Assembly (NCBI GenBank): GCA_046533775.1
Contig: JAWDOO010000015.1
Span: 1 to 6,978 of the forward strand
Reading direction: 5' to 3'
Length of the DNA: 6,978 nucleotides
Origin: Candidatus Nanopusillus sp.
GTDB lineage: Archaea > Nanobdellota > Nanobdellia > Nanobdellales > Nanobdellaceae
Below the pieces are notes generated by a model that saw only the letters and a program-made list of their open reading frames with translations, was not told the origin of the DNA and did not search any database. This document shows positions 1 to 6,978 of this stretch, in pieces. The number at the start of each line of letters is the position of its first letter. Position 1 is the first letter of the stretch. A program made the position numbers and the translations under genes.

Positions 1-438
1 TTTGATGGATTAGCCCTGTTTTTTCTTGGTTTATTATTTGAATATTTATATGGAAGTAAAGATCTTTTAATATTATTTTTCTTATCTGGTATTGTTGGAA
101 ATATATTCTTTTTATTTCAATATTATAATAACCCACTGATTGCTGGAATTGGATCTTCTGCTGCAATATCTGGTATATTAGGAGCATTGGGAATATTGAG
201 ACCAAAAGAGAAAGTAATAATATTTCCGATAATAATTCCAATAGATATGATATATGCAGCAATATTTTGGGTTATATTTAACTTAATTGGAGTATTTTAT
301 CCATTTATACCTTTGGGATTTTCTGCACATCTGGGTGGTACATTATTTGGATTTTTATATGGATATATATTAAAAAGATATAAAGGGAAAACATCAATAG
401 ATAATATTTTTGATAATCAAGAAACAATTTATTTATAA
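1..438 (+). CDS. Rhomboid-family intramembrane serine protease, C-terminal part (5' end outside the window)
   Basis: Frame 1 has no stop from nt 1 to the TAA at 436-438, so the track's TTG start at 187 is probably an artefact of the window edge. The translation FDGLALFFLGLLFEYLYG...GIGSSAAISGILGALG...FSAHLGGTLFGFLYG carries the rhomboid GxSx catalytic-Ser motif (Ser codon 157-159) and the AHxGG catalytic-His motif (His codon 328-330), both inside hydrophobic helices. Confidence 0.85.
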   Translation, partial: FDGLALFFLGLLFEYLYGSKDLLILFFLSGIVGNIFFLFQYYNNPLIAGIGSSAAISGILGALGILRPKEKVIIFPIIIPIDMIYAAIFWVIFNLIGVFYPFIPLGFSAHLGGTLFGFLYGYILKRYKGKTSIDNIFDNQETIYL

Positions 439-725: not shown

Positions 726-2144
726 TTATACCTGATCTTGTATATATTTTTTGCCGGTTCTTCTAAATTCCTCCGATTTATATATTTCTTTTCCAACATA
801 CATTGAATGATCGTATGATGTAAAAAATGGTAGTCCCTTTAATATATTATATATTTCATCAACATTTTCAGATCCAAATTTAAAATCTAAAATTGTATTA
901 TCATAACTTCTATGTTCTACAAATGTTTTATTATCTTCATTATATATTATAAAATTACCCTTTGGATCTGGTACAAAAGATCTTATTCTATATCCATATT
1001 TTTCTAATACTCTTTCCATATATGGAAAATCATGTTCATATACATGTGCTGATGCTGAAATTGTTGTAACAATTCCTAATTCATATCCTTTGTTTGTTCT
1101 TTTATTTATTTCATTAACAATATATTCTCCAATTCTAATTAATGCATACATATTTAATGGCCATCCTCTAAACATGTCATTACTCCTTATATATTCTGTA
1201 AGGTTTAGATATTTCCCCTGAATTATTCCCTCTATAGATATAACACATGGCGGATCATTTGAATTTATATCTATATTTGGATTCCATGTAACCATGATTG
1301 CTCTCCTTGTTTCCGGATTTTTTGATAATTTATTTATAATATATTGTAATTGATTTAAATTATTATAATTAAGAAATCTTTCTCCATATGTATAATCAAC
1401 ACCTTCCGGTTTTTTATCAATAAAATATCCTTTTAAATGTTTTTCAAATTCTTCTAATTTAATAAATTCATCAAATTCTTTTTCTAAATAATATTTTCTC
1501 CCATATAATCCCAAACTAACAATTATATTTAATCTCTCTAATTGTTTTTCATTATATTCAGAACCTTTTAAAATTCCATACATTTTAATTTCTGTTAATA
1601 ATCTTACCCATGAATTAAATAATGATTCTTCATATATAAATGCAGGAGGTAATGGAATTGTATAACCATAATCTTTTTTTACATCTTCTTTTATTTCAAT
1701 ATTTATTTTCTTTCTAAATATATTTTCTGGTTTATAATTATTTTCAATTATTTCTTCTAATTTACTCATATTTTTATTCCAGAAATCTTTTCTCATATCT
1801 ATTACATTTGTAGTATTTAAAATTTCTTTTATTTCATTATAATTCAAATTTATATGATATCCCTTTAATGTATTTTCATCCTTATTATTAAATATATCAA
1901 TTAAAGCTTGACCGGATAGTGTTAGATCTGGTCCATATAGAATTATCTTATTTATCTGTGGGTTTTCTCCCAATGTTTGAATTAAATATTTTATTCCATT
2001 GATTGTATATAACGTTCCAATTATATTTATCTTATTTTTAATATTTTCAGGTAATGAATTAAATATAAAATCTTTTTTTGCCCATAATGTTGCTATAGAA
2101 ATATTGCTTTTCGGATTTATAATTAAAATATCTTTTTCTAACAT
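726..2144 (-). CDS. thyA: Thymidylate synthase (ThyA-type catalytic core) with an extra N-terminal MtrA-like module and a C-terminal DUF4346-like module
   Basis: 472-aa ORF. ThyA signatures are ETRRAIMVTWNP (R280/R281), NDPPCVISIEG (Cys300, codon 1245-1247), YIRSNDMFRGWPLNMYAL (R320/S321/D323/N331) and SAHVYEHD (H367/Y369). Residues ~1-140 (IIGTLYTINGIKYLIQTLGENPQINKIILYGPDLTLSGQALIDIFNN) resemble MtrA by eye. Residues ~390-472 (PDPKGNFIIY...VEHRSYDN...DHSMYVGKEIYKSE...KYIQD) resemble DUF4346 by eye. Confidence 0.85.
   Translation of the reverse strand: MLEKDILIINPKSNISIATLWAKKDFIFNSLPENIKNKINIIGTLYTINGIKYLIQTLGENPQINKIILYGPDLTLSGQALIDIFNNKDENTLKGYHINLNYNEIKEILNTTNVIDMRKDFWNKNMSKLEEIIENNYKPENIFRKKINIEIKEDVKKDYGYTIPLPPAFIYEESLFNSWVRLLTEIKMYGILKGSEYNEKQLERLNIIVSLGLYGRKYYLEKEFDEFIKLEEFEKHLKGYFIDKKPEGVDYTYGERFLNYNNLNQLQYIINKLSKNPETRRAIMVTWNPNIDINSNDPPCVISIEGIIQGKYLNLTEYIRSNDMFRGWPLNMYALIRIGEYIVNEINKRTNKGYELGIVTTISASAHVYEHDFPYMERVLEKYGYRIRSFVPDPKGNFIIYNEDNKTFVEHRSYDNTILDFKFGSENVDEIYNILKGLPFFTSYDHSMYVGKEIYKSEEFRRTGKKYIQDQV
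747..752 (+). terminator. Oligo-T (T6) 22 nt downstream of the 79-aa ORF stop, embedded in the 3' end of the convergent thyA-like gene
   Basis: TTTTTT at 747-752 follows the TAG at 723-725. Confidence 0.3.
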
Positions 2145-2166: not shown

Positions 2167-2173
2167 TTATAAA
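2167..2173 (-). promoter_or_regulatory. TATA-like box for the thyA-like gene, overlapping the stop codon of the upstream glycosyltransferase gene
   Basis: The minus strand reads gAAAATTTATAAga, with its core centred about 26 nt upstream of the ATG at 2144. Only 22 nt separate the two genes. Confidence 0.35.
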
Positions 2174-3729
2174 TTTTCTTTTTTATTTATTATCCCCAAA
2201 TATAGTAAATTTTTTACATTCTTTTTGCTCATTTTATAACTTCTATATTGCAAATAGAATATAAATAATATTGAAATTATCCAAATATAAATGGAAAGCT
2301 CTCCCAATGTTATGCTCATTAAAAATGGTAAAATATTATAAGAATTTATATATGGTAGCCATGATGAATATGTATAGTAAAGGAAATATATATTTATTAA
2401 TAAAAATATTATATATACGGTTATCGAATAATAATCAAAATTATATTTTCTTATTGTTTTAACAGTAACTATCCATTTGTTATCTAAACCAATTAATAAT
2501 CTTCTTAAATAATAAGATATTGTTAATGCAGAGATACCCCAACCAATTAATAATACTAAAAAAGAATCCAAAATACTTGCTTTATTATATATTCTTTTTT
2601 CAACTATGTAATATTCTGTTATAAAAATTGTTATTATATAAATTTGTGAGAAATAAAAGAATGGAGCTACATAATACCATAATGGTGATGAAAGATTGAA
2701 TAGAATAATTATTATGCTAATTAATATTAATATAAAAGAAATTAATGGTAAAAATAATGTTGAAAACATATGAATGAAACTCATCTTTTGTTTAAATTTT
2801 AAATTTTTATTAAATAATATTTTCCAGAAATTTGAAATAATTACATCAAAAGTACCTGTTTGCCATCTTCTTAATGTTTTTAGCGTCATATTAAAGTTTG
2901 GAGGTAAATTTTGTCCATATTCAATCCAATCCCTAATATATATACCCTTAAAACCATTTAAATATAATCTAATTGTTAATGAAGCATCTTCAGTTAAATG
3001 TGGTGTAAATTTTCCAGCTTTTATATAATCTTCTAATCTCAAAACTCCACAAGAACCATGCGCCATGGATATATCATCCAAAATATTTTTCATTGGCAAA
3101 TAAAATTCAAAAAACGTGTCCACATAAATTCCAACAATTTTATGAAAATAATCTACTGGAACAGTCCTTCTGTTCCAATATACAAAAGATAAATCCTTAT
3201 TTGATTCTAGAATACATACAGCTTTATATAAATATTCGATTGTAACAGTCCATTCAAAATCATATACAGAAAAATACTTTATATTATATTTTCTTTTTAA
3301 ATAATCTAATACATCATCCAAAGCAGCACCCTTTCTTTTTATACCATTTAATCTAAAATAGTATTTTACTTTATCTAGGTCATATATTAAGTATTTTTCA
3401 TCATAATATTTTTTTAAACAATTTTTTTCTAAATATTCTACCAATTTATTTTCTTTGTTTAAATCTGTATCATCCAAAAATAAAAAATATATAGTAAGAT
3501 TTTTATACACATTATTTATATTTTTCAAATATTCAATTTTTTTTATTAAAAGATCTTCTTCTTCATTTTTTACTGGAAATATTACAAATAAATTTTCTTT
3601 ATTTTTTAAATCTCTATATTTTGGAATTTTTATTTTTCTATCTATATTTATCAAATATCTTAGATCAAATATTGATATTATTAATATATCTAATAATAAT
3701 AAGATTGAAGAAATAAATAATAGATCCAT
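2167..3729 (-). CDS. Membrane-integrated family-2 glycosyltransferase, processive synthase type (cellulose/chitin/PNAG-synthase-like)
   Basis: 520-aa ORF. It has an N-terminal TM helix followed by GT2 motifs: FPVKNEE (51-57), FLDDTD (84-89), KGAALDD (133-139), VYDFEW (a DxD-position variant, 155-160), TED in HLTEDASLTIRL (codons 2986-2994) and a QxxRW-type motif reading TLRRWQTG (Trp codon 2863-2865). About 5-6 hydrophobic helices follow, from residue ~320 to ~495. Confidence 0.9.
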   Translation of the reverse strand: MDLLFISSILLLLDILIISIFDLRYLINIDRKIKIPKYRDLKNKENLFVIFPVKNEEEDLLIKKIEYLKNINNVYKNLTIYFLFLDDTDLNKENKLVEYLEKNCLKKYYDEKYLIYDLDKVKYYFRLNGIKRKGAALDDVLDYLKRKYNIKYFSVYDFEWTVTIEYLYKAVCILESNKDLSFVYWNRRTVPVDYFHKIVGIYVDTFFEFYLPMKNILDDISMAHGSCGVLRLEDYIKAGKFTPHLTEDASLTIRLYLNGFKGIYIRDWIEYGQNLPPNFNMTLKTLRRWQTGTFDVIISNFWKILFNKNLKFKQKMSFIHMFSTLFLPLISFILILISIIIILFNLSSPLWYYVAPFFYFSQIYIITIFITEYYIVEKRIYNKASILDSFLVLLIGWGISALTISYYLRRLLIGLDNKWIVTVKTIRKYNFDYYSITVYIIFLLINIYFLYYTYSSWLPYINSYNILPFLMSITLGELSIYIWIISILFIFYLQYRSYKMSKKNVKNLLYLGIINKKENL

Positions 3730-3730
3730 T

Positions 3731-4111
3731 TTAATATAATGGACTCTGTATTATAATAGGTAATAGTTGTGATGATGCCGAATATATATACATGGGACTA
3801 ATTATCAGTGAATATATAATTAATGATATTAGTAATGACGCTAAAATAATAATTGCTATAATTATTAGAGACAAATCAAATAAATAATATAGTAATATCC
3901 CTATTATAAATAATAATATTATAATAAATAAGAATATTGATTGTATCATTGATAGATCCAATAATGATACTAATAATATAAGTAACAATGATAAAATTAT
4001 TAACAAAATTATAAATACTAATGCTCCTTTTTTCAATAACTTTGATAATATGATCAATACCAATGTGAATGTATATATTTCGAATAGAATAATGAATGTT
4101 GTTAATATCAT
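3731..4111 (-). CDS. Small polytopic membrane protein (126 aa, about 4 TM helices); candidate partner of the downstream glycosyltransferase
   Basis: The ORF ends at the TAA at 3731-3733, 1 nt before the glycosyltransferase ATG (3727-3729). There are four Leu/Ile-rich hydrophobic stretches separated by short polar loops (KLLKKG, DLSMIQS). A TATA-like palindrome is centred 25-26 nt upstream of the ATG. Low-complexity composition keeps confidence moderate. Confidence 0.6.
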   Translation of the reverse strand: MILTTFIILFEIYTFTLVLIILSKLLKKGALVFIILLIILSLLLILLVSLLDLSMIQSIFLFIIILLFIIGILLYYLFDLSLIIIAIIILASLLISLIIYSLIISPMYIYSASSQLLPIIIQSPLY

Positions 4112-4911: not shown

Positions 4912-6264
4912 TTATTTATTTTTTAATAGTTCTTCAAAGAATTTATCCCTAATAGGTTCATATACCTTTTTATAAAATTCTTGTTGATCTAAGAGAACCT
5001 CCTTTGGAAATTTTTTTAAATATTCCATTGCAAAGTTCCATGCAATATCATAATCAACTATACTATTTATTTTATCCTTTATTTCTTTATCATAATCTTC
5101 TGGTGTTTGATCTTTATCTCCTATATGAAAATATCCCGTCTTTTTATTATATGGTGCTTCTTCATTTCCAACTTTTACTAATTCTATTTCTTTATCTTCT
5201 TTTTCTTTAAAATATGGATGAAATATTTTTTCTTTACTCCTTTTATATATTGGTCTATAATATTTTGCCCATGCATAGAATATTGCTCTATTTAAACCAA
5301 AGCTCTTTGCTTTATTTATATCATTATATAATATATAATATCTTGCCGCTTGTAATAATCCCATAACTTGGAATCTTCCAACATTTCCTAAATTTTCTCT
5401 TTTTATTGATATTTTCTCCTGTTTTAATGTATTTTTATTTAAATAATTTACAATATAATTTTTTGTTTCTTTTATAGATATCTCTGCTAAATAATCCCCT
5501 TCTCCAGGTTCATATTCTCTCCATTTTTCACTATGTTTAAAATTCTTATAATTTGCCCAGGATAGATCAAAATTTTGAATATCGTTTGGTTTAAATACTA
5601 TGCATACATAATCTAAAAATCTATGAAATGATAAAGGTACTGTAAATACCCTCTGTATATCTATCTTATTTTCAACTTTGAATTCTCTAGATTTTCCCTT
5701 TGCTTTTGATATCTCTTTTTCTAAATCATCTTTCGCTTTCTTTAATATAAAATCTACAATTGCGAATGCAATATTTAGTGGATGATATTTATTTAATATA
5801 TTCTCTGAAAATGCTTTTTCATTAATATGTATGTGTATTCCCCTTCCACTCCATTTTAAATATACAGATTTATATATTTTATATTTTTCCAGATATGAAA
5901 CAATTATTTCTGCAACATTTTTTATTATATCAAAATCTTCTAATGTTCCATCAATATCAAAAATTGGCGTTACATATTTTATATTATTTATATCTTTTAA
6001 TTTGTCTTCAGAAATTTGATTATATATATTTATTGTCGCATAAATTGTTCGAAATTTCAAATAAGAAAATTTTGTAAATAAAGACTTGTATTCATCTTCA
6101 TTTTCAATTTTTAATGGTTTTTTATCTTTATCATATCTTATAAATATTCTTTGATCCAATCTATTTGTTTCTAAAGCGATCCATCTATTTTTTGAATAAT
6201 CAATAATCTCTTTTATAACATATTCATTCATGTAATAATTTTTTATTTCGAACCATTCTATCAT
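4912..6264 (-). CDS. priS: Archaeo-eukaryotic primase (PriS-like catalytic domain) with a C-terminal helical extension; possible fused PriS-PriL-type minimal primase
   Basis: 450-aa ORF. AEP motif I is PIFDIDG (D103/D105, codons 5950-5958). Motif II is KWSGRGIHIHI (5833-5850). Motif III is KIDIQRVFTVPLSFH (D202, codon 5659-5661). The whole protein has one cysteine (C221), so there is no Zn-knuckle and no 4-Cys Fe-S site. Residues ~290-450 are helical, Tyr/Lys-rich and not part of the catalytic fold. Confidence 0.85.
   Translation of the reverse strand: MIEWFEIKNYYMNEYVIKEIIDYSKNRWIALETNRLDQRIFIRYDKDKKPLKIENEDEYKSLFTKFSYLKFRTIYATINIYNQISEDKLKDINNIKYVTPIFDIDGTLEDFDIIKNVAEIIVSYLEKYKIYKSVYLKWSGRGIHIHINEKAFSENILNKYHPLNIAFAIVDFILKKAKDDLEKEISKAKGKSREFKVENKIDIQRVFTVPLSFHRFLDYVCIVFKPNDIQNFDLSWANYKNFKHSEKWREYEPGEGDYLAEISIKETKNYIVNYLNKNTLKQEKISIKRENLGNVGRFQVMGLLQAARYYILYNDINKAKSFGLNRAIFYAWAKYYRPIYKRSKEKIFHPYFKEKEDKEIELVKVGNEEAPYNKKTGYFHIGDKDQTPEDYDKEIKDKINSIVDYDIAWNFAMEYLKKFPKEVLLDQQEFYKKVYEPIRDKFFEELLKNK
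4919..4924 (+). terminator. Oligo-T (T6) 9 nt downstream of the peroxiredoxin stop, embedded in the primase 3' coding end
   Basis: TAA at 4908-4910 is followed by attatttaTTTTTT, with the T6 at 4919-4924. Confidence 0.3.
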
Positions 6265-6366: not shown

Positions 6367-6978
6367 TTATGTGTACATTGAGCCTTTTCCATTTATTGTA
6401 AGTGACCCATTATTAATTGTTACAGAACTTTGTCCATTAATATTTAATGTTCCATTGTTATTTTCTATTGTCATGGAACCCTGTCCATTTATATTTATTG
6501 TTTCATTATTAATTTCTATTGTAATAGAGTTCTGATTATTTATATTTGTTTGATTATTTTCTATGGAAATCTGCCAATTTGTATTATTCCAGTTCCAATT
6601 GTTCCAATTCCAATTTTCTATCCAATTCTTTATTTCTCTTCTAAAGTGTTTCATATGCTCCCCAATAATTTCTTCTTCATAATTTTCTCCCATACTTCTT
6701 ATTACTTCCCAATTATAATCTTCTAATTGATATATCATATTCAATAGTGTAGATATATTTTCATTCATAACTTCTTGTATTATTGGTGTTAATGTTTGAT
6801 TTAACTCTGGTAATATATTACATATGAATAATGAATTATTTGTATAATTACACAATACTTCAAACTTATCTAATAATAAGGGTAAATGTTCTAATAATCT
6901 ATTAATACGTTTTTCTAAAAGTTGAGTTATATTTAATTCTCCATTTCTATTCATTTTATAATCATTTTCAATTTCTTG
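6367..6978 (-). CDS. Asn/Trp-rich tandem-repeat protein of unknown function; the N-terminus may lie outside the window
   Basis: The track gives 6367-6954 (195 aa). However, the frame has no stop upstream of the ATG at 6954 through nt 6978 (it reads QEIENDYK-MNRNG...), so the true start is undetermined. The architecture is a helical region, then a WIENWNWNNWNWNNTNW cluster, then about 3.5 copies of a 17-aa unit (consensus hTIENNxGTLNINGQGS), ending in MYT. Confidence 0.7.
   Translation of the reverse strand, partial: QEIENDYKMNRNGELNITQLLEKRINRLLEHLPLLLDKFEVLCNYTNNSLFICNILPELNQTLTPIIQEVMNENISTLLNMIYQLEDYNWEVIRSMGENYEEEIIGEHMKHFRREIKNWIENWNWNNWNWNNTNWQISIENNQTNINNQNSITIEINNETININGQGSMTIENNNGTLNINGQSSVTINNGSLTINGKGSMYT
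6379..6573 (-). repeat. Coding tandem repeat with a 51-nt (17-codon) unit, about 3.5-4 degenerate copies
   Basis: The units are 6526-6573 (QISIENNQTNINNQNS), 6475-6525 (ITIEINNETININGQGS), 6424-6474 (MTIENNNGTLNINGQSS) and 6379-6423 (VTINNGSLTINGKGS, which has a 2-codon deletion). The two central units align nucleotide for nucleotide at most positions by eye. Confidence 0.8.
6574..6624 (-). repeat. Short ccaatt/ccagtt-type microrepeat encoding a Trp/Asn cluster (6 Trp in 17 residues)
   Basis: The + strand reads ccaatttgtattattccagttccaattgttccaattccaattttctatcca, encoding WIENWNWNNWNWNNTNW (aa 111-127). Confidence 0.6.

What the first reader, a model, noticed from the sequence alone, without database searches (positions are those of the whole stretch)
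726..2144. ThyA catalytic core sandwiched between an MtrA-like N-terminal module and a DUF4346-like C-terminal module
Seen directly: every hallmark ThyA active-site element is present (RR pair, PPC nucleophile, RSxD, the Asn that reads the uracil face, and HxY). The protein is nevertheless 472 aa, and the ThyA fold accounts only for roughly residues 165-385. The first ~140 residues follow the pattern I remember for methyl-H4MPT:CoM methyltransferase subunit A (MtrA): ...TLxxx...IxGxxxTxNxGIxxxIxxxxxNPxIxxxILxGxxxxxxGQALxxxxxN. MtrA is a corrinoid-binding Rossmann-like fold. The last ~80 residues follow the DUF4346 pattern (DPxGxFxI...VEHxSYDN...xHxxYxGKExxxxE...KYxQD). From memory, DUF4346 otherwise occurs attached to MtrA-like and pterin-binding (DHPS-like) proteins. 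The inference is that a dUMP-methylating core has been inserted into a scaffold repeatedly linked to C1 carriers (pterin or corrinoid). That raises the possibility of a non-canonical one-carbon donor or reductant, or of donor channelling, in an organism that may lack standard folate metabolism. If the architecture is already catalogued, its biochemistry is, as far as I know, uncharacterised.
Basis: partly seen in the sequence, partly recalled or inferred. Interest (0 to 1): 0.7.

Follow-up and report, generated by a model that had tools for sequence, protein, structure and literature searches.

The report
Three-domain thymidylate synthase of nanoarchaea
This gene of a tiny host-dependent archaeon encodes the enzyme that makes the DNA building block thymidylate, but the catalytic core is wedged between two extra domains inherited from a vitamin-B12-binding protein family; nobody has tested what these domains do, and the organism has no recognisable genes to supply or recycle the enzyme's usual folate-type cofactor.

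Summary
ORF 726-2144 (minus strand, 472 aa) has three modules: an MtrA-like N-domain (residues 1-140), a complete short archaeal-type ThyA core (168-388) and a DUF4346 domain (389-472). It is the Nanopusillus (Nanoarchaeota) member of a conserved family found in DPANN archaea, some TACK archaea and CPR bacteria. In CPR genomes the gene sits in dCTP deaminase - ThyA - thymidylate kinase runs, so it is very probably a real thymidylate synthase. Two-domain MtrA-DUF4346 proteins exist with the domains directly adjacent, and the ThyA core sits exactly at their junction, so the "inserted into a scaffold" reading holds. Those two-domain proteins keep MtrA's cobalt-ligand residues (His84, Glu54). Every ThyA-fused member examined has lost both through small deletions, which argues against MtrA-style corrinoid binding. 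The DUF4346 motif is unchanged in all architectures, including a DHPS-like enzyme in a methanopterin-biosynthesis cluster. The published gene table of the close relative N. acidilobi lists this protein as the only thymidylate synthase and shows no DHFR, SHMT or folate genes. The C-terminal fusion is already catalogued (arCOG03214, Pfam); I found no report of its biochemistry. What the flanking domains do is inference only: pterin handling is the best guess, a redox or recycling role the most interesting alternative.

The parts
726..2144 (-). Whole gene: 472-aa three-domain thymidylate synthase (stop codon 726-728)
   Evidence: ORF list. 135 homologues at E<=1e-3 in that search, nearly all full length. 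91% identical to the Ca. Nanopusillus acidilobi orthologue. AF2 model has pLDDT 92.7 and pTM 0.89.
1725..2144 (-). N-terminal MtrA-like alpha/beta domain (residues 1-140), without cobalt-ligand residues
   Evidence: NF002126 hits residues 3-87 at E 8.6e-8. The family profile hits MtrA structures 5LAA/8Q3V/5L8X at E 1.5e-17 to 3e-14. Translation checked.
1995..2018 (-). Loop G43-TLYTIN-G50: the position of MtrA Glu54 is Ile48 here, with a 1-residue deletion; Y46 is conserved only in the fused clade
   Evidence: Alignments. Column counts show position 48 is variable and Y46 is present in 36 of 36 residues at that column. Translation checked.
1911..1934 (-). Loop G71-PDLTLS-G78: the site where MtrA carries His84 (GSEVQGHIVGQ); the His and its neighbour are deleted
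   Evidence: In one search the His falls in an insertion relative to the family profile. In one search six MtrA-DUF4346 proteins keep the His (five as GH) and six fused proteins lack it. CPR, TACK and Huberarchaeum members also lack it. Translation checked.
1644..1724 (-). Linker, residues 141-167
   Evidence: No regular secondary structure in the model, and the lowest confidence outside the chain ends (pLDDT 66 for residues 151-160). The alignment is variable here.
981..1643 (-). ThyA catalytic core, short archaeal type (residues 168-388)
   Evidence: TIGR03283 covers 170-375 at 150.6 bits. PF00303 covers 247-385. Foldseek top hits are ThyA and dCMP hydroxymethylase structures at E about 1e-13. 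hhalign to E. coli ThyA.
1377..1394 (-). YTYGER motif (251-256); Y253 corresponds to E. coli Y94
   Evidence: Y251, Y253, G254 and R256 are invariant in 37 sequences.
1302..1307 (-). R280-R281, the Arg pair that in ThyA reaches into the partner subunit's dUMP site
   Evidence: R is present in 34/37 and 33/37 sequences.
1245..1253 (-). P298-P299-C300: catalytic cysteine nucleophile
   Evidence: C300 is invariant.
1152..1187 (-). R320-S321-N322-D323 through N331: phosphate-binding Arg/Ser, the pterin-contacting Asp (E. coli D169) and the uracil-reading Asn (E. coli N177)
   Evidence: R320, S321, D323, W328 and N331 are invariant.
1038..1046 (-). H367-V-Y369 (E. coli H207/Y209)
729..980 (-). C-terminal DUF4346 domain (residues 389-472): three strands plus two helices; conserved D393-x-x-G396, H446, E453 and Q469-D470
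   Evidence: PF14251 scores 53 bits. hhalign to DUF4346 domains from non-ThyA proteins gives 99.7%, E 1.3e-26. The AF2 domain model has pLDDT 87.5. No solved structure resembles it by sequence or Foldseek. Translation checked.

Best explanation
The gene encodes the working, and probably only, thymidylate synthase of a Nanopusillus-type nanoarchaeon. Chemistry happens in a short archaeal-type ThyA core. Cys300 adds to C6 of dUMP, which is held by R320/S321, N331 and the partner subunit's R280/R281. C5 then takes a methylene from a reduced pterin carrier contacted by D323. By analogy with ThyA, the pterin also gives the hydride, yielding dTMP and a dihydropterin. The core lies at the domain junction of an older two-domain protein type, MtrA-like corrinoid domain plus DUF4346. 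After the fusion the MtrA-like domain lost its cobalt-ligand residues and gained its own conserved set (W21, Y46, D73, S77, D116). DUF4346 kept the same polar motif it has on methanopterin-pathway DHPS-like enzymes. I infer that the flanking module is a ligand-binding accessory that helps the enzyme bind or retain a scavenged, non-folate (methanopterin-like) C1 carrier, and is not a corrinoid methyl carrier. Shown: domain identities, catalytic residues, loss of the cobalt ligands, architectures, and the dTTP-pathway gene context. Inferred: the donor, the fate of the dihydropterin, and any role for the flanks. Sub-confidences: about 0.85 that it is a thymidylate synthase, and about 0.35 that the flanks handle a pterin.
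For: All ThyA catalytic residues are present and invariant or nearly so across 37 homologues. Asn, not Asp, sits at the base-reading position (N331). In four CPR genomes the gene lies in a same-strand run of dCTP deaminase, fused ThyA and thymidylate kinase. In a Wolfebacteria contig it lies between two dCTP deaminase/dUTPase-like genes, and in Huberarchaeum it follows Tmk; these copies keep RR, PPC and RSND. The N. acidilobi gene table lists this protein (Nps_01005, arCOG03214) as the only thymidylate synthase, alongside Tmk, two deoxycytidine deaminases and an RNR. The N-domain is a true MtrA homologue but lacks His84 and Glu54 in every fused member, whereas six MtrA-DUF4346 proteins keep them (residue roles from PMC4915002). 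MtrA and DUF4346 are directly adjacent in stand-alone proteins and in NCBIfam NF002128. The DUF4346 motif is the same in all architectures. It occurs on the TIGR00284 DHPS-like gene inside a cluster with GCHY-1, PTPS, FolB, HPPK, GHMP kinases, DUF447 and a B12-radical SAM gene. The model is confident as a single unit (pTM 0.89). The short ThyA type (TIGR03283) ends at residue 375, so it lacks the C-terminal segment of canonical ThyA, and DUF4346 begins just after that point.
Against: No experiment exists. The protein was not detected in the N. acidilobi proteome table. TIGR03283 scores below its equivalog cut-off (150.6 versus 174.55 bits). Nothing shows that DUF4346 or the N-domain binds a pterin. 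DUF4346 also sits on His-bearing corrinoid-type proteins, one of them in a bacterial ArsR/MerR/DsbD neighbourhood, which does not look pterin-related. CPR bacteria are reported to use folate with FolA/GlyA/FolD (PMC11974145), so a methanopterin-specific role cannot hold for the whole family. I could not read model coordinates, so I do not know whether the conserved flank residues face the ThyA active site. If the pterin is the reductant, the absence of any annotated DHFR in both symbiont and host is unexplained.
Confidence: 0.55

Rival explanations
1. Redox or recycling module. The MtrA-like and DUF4346 domains together re-reduce the dihydropterin product, or deliver the hydride from another reductant so that the pterin stays tetrahydro. 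The protein would then be a functional analogue of bifunctional DHFR-TS or of ThyX, and this would explain ThyA in genomes without DHFR.
For: N. acidilobi (656 proteins) and its host have no gene annotated as DHFR; the host uses ThyX. No FolA homologue lies within 10 kb of the gene in any of 52 loci. The partners of DUF4346, ThyA and the DHPS-like enzyme, both release 7,8-dihydropterins (established chemistry, my knowledge). The N-domain has an alpha/beta fold with family-specific conserved W21, Y46, D73, S77 and D116 at the strand ends where MtrA binds its cofactor. TS fused to its recycling enzyme has precedent in DHFR-TS structures.
Against: There is no dinucleotide- or flavin-binding motif, no Pfam or NCBIfam reductase hit, and no structural match for DUF4346. 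CPR relatives commonly have FolA. Missing annotation in a 2016 gene table is weak evidence of absence.
Confidence: 0.15
2. Inert remnant or structural role. The flanks are leftovers of the ancestral fusion that now serve only folding, oligomerisation or thermostability. The enzyme is an ordinary methylene-pterin ThyA.
For: The cofactor ligands of the MtrA-like domain are lost. In the window's clade the meander segment is shortened. The ThyA core has everything needed for catalysis. At least one ThyA-DUF4346 protein without a recognisable MtrA domain exists (P0305).
Against: Both flanks are retained at full length from DPANN to CPR in very small genomes. The invariant residues are polar, at loop positions, and include the extreme C-terminal Q-D (D393, H446, E453, Q469, D470; W21, Y46, D73, S77, D116). 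That pattern is typical of ligand sites rather than packing.
Confidence: 0.2
3. Corrinoid-dependent methylation. The MtrA-like domain still holds a corrinoid without a protein ligand, or with H446 of DUF4346 as ligand. Methyl-Co(III) is then attacked directly by the Cys-activated C5 of dUMP, as SAM is in m5U methyltransferases, so no reduction step is needed.
For: The N-domain is a genuine MtrA homologue. DUF4346 has an invariant His and accompanies His-bearing MtrA-like proteins. N. acidilobi has a class II, B12-dependent ribonucleotide reductase and its host has cobalamin salvage genes, so corrinoid is available. The chemistry is plausible (inference).
Against: His84 and Glu54 are removed in every fused member but kept in stand-alone relatives, which is the pattern expected when corrinoid binding is given up. 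The meander motif GAIPF(Y/F)xEN is degenerate in the window protein. D323, the counterpart of the pterin-contacting D169, is invariant. No corrinoid-remethylating partner was found nearby.
Confidence: 0.06
4. Not a thymidylate synthase. The ThyA-like core is a dUMP or dCMP hydroxymethylase, or another pyrimidine-modifying enzyme.
For: The ThyA superfamily includes hydroxymethylases that score similarly in sequence and fold searches. TIGR03283 scores below its cut-off.
Against: Asn331, not Asp, reads the base. The gene sits in dcd-thyA-tmk operons. It is the only thymidylate synthase candidate in a genome that must make dTTP.
Confidence: 0.04

Closest known systems
Short archaeal ThyA of methanogens (NCBIfam TIGR03283; MJ0757 type, the latter from my own knowledge)
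   Same: Best-matching family for residues 170-375 (150.6 bits). Same catalytic residues. Same lack of the canonical folate-tail region and of the C-terminal segment of bacterial ThyA. The cofactor is presumed to be a methanopterin-type pterin, but this is little studied (PMC9012536).
   Different: The stand-alone proteins correspond to about 200 profile positions with no flanking domains. This protein scores below the equivalog cut-off and carries about 165 extra residues N-terminally and 84 C-terminally.
MtrA, corrinoid subunit of methyl-H4MPT:CoM methyltransferase, and its cytoplasmic homologues (PDB 5LAA, 5L8X, 8Q3V; PMC4915002)
   Same: The alpha/beta domain is homologous: family profile E 1.5e-17 with the same order of conserved Gly/Pro/Asp positions.
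   Different: No His84, no Glu54 and a degenerate meander motif. No membrane anchor. Not part of an mtr operon.
Two-domain MtrA-DUF4346 proteins (NCBIfam NF002128 and relatives; P0287, P0298, P0317, P0355, P0388, P0391)
   Same: Same two flanking domains in the same order, with the same DUF4346 motif.
   Different: There the domains are directly adjacent with no ThyA, and His84, Glu54 and the meander are retained, so these are probably real corrinoid proteins. Some have Cys-rich termini, and one sits among ArsR/MerR/DsbD-type genes.
DHPS-like enzyme of methanopterin biosynthesis (NCBIfam TIGR00284; MJ0301 type, the latter from my own knowledge)
   Same: Carries the same C-terminal DUF4346. Its product is a 7,8-dihydropterin, as is ThyA's (my knowledge).
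   Different: The catalytic domain is a Pterin_bind TIM barrel. No MtrA-like region was detected (hhalign probability 0.1%).
Bifunctional DHFR-TS of protozoa (for example PDB 3CLB, 2H2Q)
   Same: A thymidylate synthase fused to a second alpha/beta domain on one chain. These are the only multi-domain TS structures among the fold-search hits.
   Different: The partner there is a FolA-type DHFR at the N-terminus only. No DHFR family hit occurs here. The resemblance is one of architecture, not homology.

Membership tests
ThyA (Thymidylat_synt, PF00303) | Profile score above the curated cut-off | tested here: met
   60.2 bits versus gathering score 24.3, E 2.3e-16.
ThyA (Thymidylat_synt, PF00303) | Catalytic Cys nucleophile (E. 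coli C146) in a P-C context | tested here: met
   C300 in PPC, invariant in 37 homologues.
ThyA (Thymidylat_synt, PF00303) | dUMP phosphate ligands: Arg pair from the partner subunit (R126/R127) and R166/S167 | tested here: met
   R280/R281 and R320/S321.
ThyA (Thymidylat_synt, PF00303) | Asn reading the uracil face (N177; Asp in dCMP hydroxymethylases) | tested here: met
   N331, invariant.
ThyA (Thymidylat_synt, PF00303) | Pterin-contacting Asp (D169), and Tyr94, His207, Tyr209 | tested here: met
   D323, Y253, H367 and Y369.
ThyA (Thymidylat_synt, PF00303) | Converts dUMP and a methylene-tetrahydropterin to dTMP and a dihydropterin | not testable with these tools
   Supported only by context: dcd-thyA-tmk operons and its status as sole TS in the N. 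acidilobi gene table.
Methanogen-type ThyA equivalog (TIGR03283) | Score above the equivalog cut-off | tested here: not met
   150.6 bits versus cut-off 174.55. It is the best-matching family but below the trusted level.
MtrA (PF04208 / TIGR01111 / NF002126) | Profile score above the curated cut-off for this protein | tested here: not met
   PF04208 was not reported at E<=0.1. NF002126 scores 32 bits versus cut-off 161. Homology of the fold is nevertheless established by the family profile against 5LAA, E 1.5e-17.
MtrA (PF04208 / TIGR01111 / NF002126) | His84 as lower axial ligand of the corrinoid cobalt | tested here: not met
   Deleted together with its neighbour (GPDLTL--SG versus GSEVQGHIVG). 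Absent in all fused members and present in six MtrA-DUF4346 proteins.
MtrA (PF04208 / TIGR01111 / NF002126) | Glu54 hydrogen-bonded to His84, and the meander motif GAIPF(Y/F)xEN | tested here: not met
   The Glu54 position is Ile48 and is variable in the family. The meander region is about 8 residues shorter and lacks the E-N.
MtrA (PF04208 / TIGR01111 / NF002126) | Binds cobalamin | not testable with these tools
   Needs spectroscopy or metal analysis of purified protein.
MtrA (PF04208 / TIGR01111 / NF002126) | Encoded in an mtr operon or next to mtrH; C-terminal membrane anchor in the canonical subunit | tested here: not met
   The neighbours are a glycosyltransferase, a peroxiredoxin, a primase-like gene and a rhomboid gene. 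There is no transmembrane segment; the chain continues into ThyA.
DUF4346 (PF14251, PterinBD-DUF4346) | Profile score above the cut-off and the shared motif (D-x-x-G; DHAxYxGxE; Y-x-Q-D) | tested here: met
   53 bits versus 29.6. hhalign to non-ThyA DUF4346 domains gives 99.7%, E 1.3e-26. The motif residues D393, G396, H446, Q469 and D470 are invariant.
DUF4346 (PF14251, PterinBD-DUF4346) | Binds a pterin, as the Pfam name hints | not testable with these tools
   The only evidence is association with Pterin_bind and ThyA enzymes and a methanopterin gene cluster. No solved relative exists.
Bifunctional DHFR-TS | FolA-type DHFR domain on the same chain | tested here: not met
   No DHFR family among the Pfam or NCBIfam hits. 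DHFR-TS structures align only through the TS part.

The most novel reading that the evidence does not exclude
The His-less MtrA-like domain and DUF4346 form a new cofactor-handling unit that makes this ThyA self-sufficient in organisms with no DHFR, SHMT or pterin synthesis. It could re-reduce or retain a scavenged pterin on the enzyme. It could instead feed the methylene or hydride from a carrier other than free methylene-tetrahydrofolate. That would be a third way of making thymidylate, beside classical ThyA plus DHFR and flavin-dependent ThyX.
Probability: 0.2. Interest if true: 0.85.

Novelty: new variant of a known kind. Interest (0 to 1): 0.6.

Why it matters
Thymidylate synthesis is essential and is a classic drug target. 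[quoted passage not shown] This family puts the question in its simplest setting: a 656-gene symbiont with one thymidylate synthase and no annotated enzyme to load or recycle the carrier. The protein carries two extra, strongly conserved domains of unknown function. The contrast found here gives a concrete, testable handle on what the extra domains do: cobalt ligands are kept in stand-alone MtrA-DUF4346 proteins and removed in every ThyA fusion. It also warns against reading MtrA hits in DPANN and CPR genomes as methane-related genes. If the flanks turn out to be inert, the result is still a tidy case of domain insertion followed by decay of a cofactor site.

Tried and rejected
(1) DUF4346 as a diverged copy of the canonical ThyA C-terminal segment. 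ThyA profiles run on into the first strands of the domain. However, a profile of non-ThyA DUF4346 domains shows no similarity to E. coli ThyA (probability 0.5%), so I rejected this.

(2) An MtrA-like region hidden in the DHPS-like TIGR00284 proteins. hhalign gives probability 0.1%, so I rejected this.

(4) Single-sequence search of the N-domain against the PDB found nothing; the family profile was needed.

(5) Conserved C1-metabolism neighbours. Clustering ORFs within +/-6 kb in 44 loci, followed by Pfam annotation, showed only dTTP-pathway genes recurring across phyla, with no DHFR, SHMT, folate, methanopterin or cobalamin genes. One convergent MFS transporter with a weak BT1 (folate-biopterin transporter) match in L033 is too weak to use.

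(6) Neighbourhoods of stand-alone DUF4346 genes and of MtrA-DUF4346 genes were uninformative or on contigs too short to help.

(7) Literature searches for DUF4346, PF14251, arCOG03214, and ThyA with MtrA or DPANN found no description of the fusion. Two relevant surveys do not mention it.

(8) The first attempt to scan genomes with the 37-sequence alignment failed because it had no sufficiently conserved stretch; a 12-sequence alignment worked.

(9) I could not obtain model coordinates, so contacts between the domains were not measured.
Full report
**What is in the window.** The window has very low G+C (about 17-30%). It carries a 472-aa ORF at 726..2144 on the minus strand. The ORF lies 22 nt downstream of a co-directional family-2 glycosyltransferase gene and ends back to back with a 79-aa ORF. 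The protein has three modules.
- Pfam places Thymidylat_synt at residues 247-385 (60.2 bits) and PterinBD-DUF4346 at 393-470 (53 bits); both exceed their gathering scores.
- NCBIfam's best family is the methanogen-type ThyA TIGR03283, covering 170-375 (150.6 bits, below its 174.55 equivalog cut-off). An MtrA subfamily model (NF002126) matches residues 3-87 at E 8.6e-8.
- An AlphaFold2 model built on 37 homologues is confident as one body (pLDDT 92.7, pTM 0.89). It shows an alpha/beta domain to about residue 140, a linker (lowest confidence at 151-160), the ThyA core at 168-388, and a three-strand, two-helix domain to the C-terminus.

**Source and family.** The closest genomic matches are Candidatus Nanopusillus acidilobi 7A (complete genome CP010514.1), other Nanopusillus MAGs and Nanobsidianus stetteri, at 89-91% protein identity and with the same neighbouring genes. 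The window therefore comes from a related hot-spring nanoarchaeon. Homologues, nearly all full length, occur in these groups:
- DPANN archaea: Nanoarchaeota, Aenigmatarchaeota, Woesearchaeota, Micrarchaeota and Huberarchaeum.
- TACK archaea: Thermofilaceae/Infirmifilum, Nitrososphaera and other Thaumarchaeota, and Brockarchaeota.
- CPR/Patescibacteria and a few other bacteria.

Sources name the protein "thymidylate synthase". For the more distant members, the precomputed Pfam strings list MtrA, Thymidylat_synt and DUF4346 together.

**The ThyA core.** It gives these pairings: Y253/Y94, R280-R281/R126-R127, C300/C146, R320-S321-D323/R166-S167-D169, N331/N177 and H367-Y369/H207-Y209. PDB ThyA chains align over the same motifs, and Foldseek returns ThyA, DHFR-TS and dCMP hydroxymethylase structures at E about 1e-13. 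Across 37 homologues, C300, R320, S321, D323, W328, N331, Y251, Y253, G254 and R256 are invariant, and the Arg pair, H367 and Y369 are nearly so. The base-reading residue is Asn, as in dUMP enzymes, not the Asp of dCMP hydroxymethylases. The region before Y251 matches only the short archaeal type. That type ends at residue 375, so the canonical folate-tail contacts and the C-terminal segment of bacterial ThyA are not represented.

**Gene context supports thymidylate synthesis.** I clustered the ORFs around the gene in 44 genomes and annotated the recurrent ones.
- Four Patescibacteria contigs have a same-strand run of dCTP deaminase, fused ThyA and thymidylate kinase.
- A Wolfebacteria contig has the gene between two dCTP deaminase/dUTPase-like genes.
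- In Huberarchaeum it follows thymidylate kinase.

These copies keep RR, PPC and RSND. In Nanopusillus the neighbours are unrelated housekeeping genes.

**The N-terminal domain is a real MtrA homologue that has lost the cobalt site.** A profile of 20 N-domains finds the solved MtrA structures 5LAA, 8Q3V and 5L8X at E 1.5e-17 to 3e-14 over about 145 positions. The single sequence finds nothing. According to the structure paper, cobalt is ligated by His84, which is held by Glu54, and the most conserved segment is the meander GAIPF(Y/F)xEN (PMC4915002).
- In the HMM alignment, His84 and its neighbour fall in an insertion that the family lacks (GSEVQGhiVGQ versus GaDlsg..sGeaL), and Glu54 aligns to a variable position.
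- I then collected DUF4346 proteins exhaustively, annotated ten of them and aligned them with MtrA and fused members.
- All six stand-alone MtrA-DUF4346 proteins keep TEN(I/L)GIE, the His84 histidine (five as GH) and a recognisable meander.
- All six ThyA-fused proteins, including the window's, lack Glu54 (with a 1-residue deletion) and His84 (with a 2-residue deletion).
- The same His-less loop is present in ten further loci from CPR, TACK and Huberarchaeum and in all 37 sequences of the large alignment.
- No His or Cys is conserved in the fused N-domain. W21, Y46, D73, S77 and D116 are conserved instead, and of these W21 and Y46 replace other residues found at those positions in the six stand-alone proteins.
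- In the window's clade the meander is also about 8 residues shorter.

**The C-terminal domain.** The ThyA-linked DUF4346 is the same domain as in other architectures (hhalign 99.7%, E 1.3e-26). It keeps the same invariant D-x-x-G, DHAxYxGxE and Y-x-Q-D motif. Five architectures were verified: stand-alone (about 100 aa), MtrA+DUF4346, Pterin_bind+DUF4346, ThyA+DUF4346 and MtrA+ThyA+DUF4346. In Bathyarchaeia the Pterin_bind+DUF4346 protein (TIGR00284, called there as two overlapping genes) lies in a cluster with GCHY-1, PTPS, FolB, HPPK, GHMP kinases, DUF447 and a B12-radical SAM gene. From my knowledge of the pathway, that is a methanopterin-biosynthesis cluster. The domain has no solved relative by sequence or Foldseek.

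**Insertion into a scaffold.** In the stand-alone proteins, and in NCBIfam NF002128, the MtrA domain is followed within about 20 residues by DUF4346. In the fusion, the 220-residue ThyA core plus linker occupies exactly that junction. I cannot say whether insertion or two separate fusions produced it.

**The organism's C1 metabolism.** The N. acidilobi paper states that the organism cannot make nucleotides, cofactors, amino acids or lipids and has 656 proteins (PMC4935971). Its supplementary gene table shows the following.
[quoted passage not shown] It is the only thymidylate synthase and was not detected in the proteome.
- The table also lists thymidylate kinase, two deoxycytidine deaminases and a class II ribonucleotide reductase.
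- It contains no entry with "folate", "dihydrofolate", "hydroxymethyltransferase", "methylene" or "cobal".
- The host Acidilobus has ThyX, glycine hydroxymethyltransferase and cobalamin salvage genes, and no DHFR entry.

The C-terminal fusion was thus already catalogued in 2016. The N-terminal homology is visible in precomputed Pfam strings of relatives. I found no biochemical study.

**How it most likely works.** Shown: it has a complete ThyA active site, it is embedded in dTTP-pathway operons in relatives, and it is the sole candidate enzyme in a genome that must make dTTP. I therefore rate thymidylate synthase function at about 0.85. Inferred: the donor is a reduced methylene-pterin contacted by the invariant D323. 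In Nanopusillus it is probably a scavenged non-folate carrier, because the core is of the short archaeal type and DUF4346 travels with a methanopterin-pathway enzyme.

For the flanks, the pattern is deliberate loss of the cobalt ligands, gain of a new conserved residue set at the same strand-end crest, and an unchanged polar motif in DUF4346 reaching to the last residues of the chain. That pattern argues for a retained ligand-binding role rather than decay. My best guess is binding or retention of the carrier (about 0.35).

The main alternative is prompted by the lack of any DHFR in symbiont and host: a redox or recycling role (0.15). A purely structural remnant (0.2) and a ligand-less corrinoid methyl carrier (0.06) cannot be excluded. 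Corrinoid is at least available to the cell, since it has a B12-dependent RNR. A non-TS activity such as hydroxymethylation is unlikely (0.04).

**Weak points.**
- There is no experiment of any kind.
- There are no model coordinates, so I do not know where the flank residues sit relative to C300.
- CPR relatives are reported to use ordinary folate with FolA, GlyA and FolD (PMC11974145), which limits any methanopterin-specific story.
- One His-bearing MtrA-DUF4346 gene sits among ArsR/MerR/DsbD-type genes, which hints that DUF4346 may not be pterin-specific at all.
- The absence of DHFR and SHMT rests on text searches of a published annotation table, not on a fresh search of the genome.

**Verdict.** This is a real, strongly conserved, catalogued but uncharacterised variant of ThyA. 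The question of how these minimal cells feed and recycle their thymidylate synthase remains open and is now sharply testable.

Noticed in passing
window 4912-6264 (-): A 450-aa ORF with only a weak Pfam DNA_primase_S hit (E 0.024). Its N. acidilobi orthologue is annotated as a eukaryotic-type primase small-subunit homologue fused to an HTH domain. It is highly diverged from the known primase profiles.
   Followed up: partly
window 6367-6954 (-): A 195-aa protein with Asn/Trp-rich repeats (NWNWNNWNWNN, and repeated INGxxSxTIxN units) and no convincing family match.
   Followed up: no
window 187-438 (+): The 3' part of a rhomboid protease gene cut by the window start; the orthologue is 210 aa in the related contig L001. 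The ORF tool shows only an internal TTG start.
   Followed up: partly
window 2167-3729 (-) and 3731-4111 (-): A 520-aa family-2 glycosyltransferase with a multi-pass membrane C-terminal half (weak cellulose-synthase CelA similarity) ends 22 nt upstream of the ThyA start. It is preceded by a 126-aa very hydrophobic Leu/Ile-rich protein. The order is conserved in Nanopusillus contigs, so co-transcription with ThyA is possible.
   Followed up: no
L055:7001-8173 (protein P0391); also P0355: His-bearing MtrA-DUF4346 proteins with Cys-rich N- and C-terminal extensions. P0391 lies directly after an ArsR-type HTH gene and near DsbD_TM and MerR genes in a bacterial contig, which suggests a corrinoid protein linked to metal or metalloid handling.
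   Followed up: partly
protein P0388: An MtrA-DUF4346 protein with a below-threshold Pfam intein-splicing match (24.3 bits against a 35.8 cut-off) preceding and abutting its MtrA-like domain, whose first ~45 profile positions are unmatched.
   Followed up: no
protein P0157 (Ca. Nanopusillus massiliensis, 607-kb contig): A 60-aa 'partial hypothetical protein' that is 90% identical to the window's DUF4346 region and then diverges after SYDH. This suggests a frameshift, assembly error or pseudogene of this thymidylate synthase in that genome.
   Followed up: no
L051:5166-6738 and L052:5124-6648: In two Bathyarchaeia-type contigs the DHPS-like TIGR00284 protein is called as two overlapping genes: DUF6513+Pterin_bind, then the rest plus DUF4346. 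This could be a frameshift or a genuine split. It lies in a methanopterin-biosynthesis cluster.
   Followed up: partly
proteins P0115 and P0119 (alignment A1): A few bacterial family members replace the Arg pair (DHG or NKG instead of RR) and carry an insertion before the catalytic Cys (PWRTPC). They may have altered dUMP binding or a different substrate.
   Followed up: no
N. acidilobi gene table (PMC4935971 supplement): The nanoarchaeon has a class II (adenosylcobalamin-dependent) ribonucleotide reductase containing an intein, but no annotated cobalamin genes. It must therefore import a corrinoid from its host, which has cobalamin salvage genes.
   Followed up: partly
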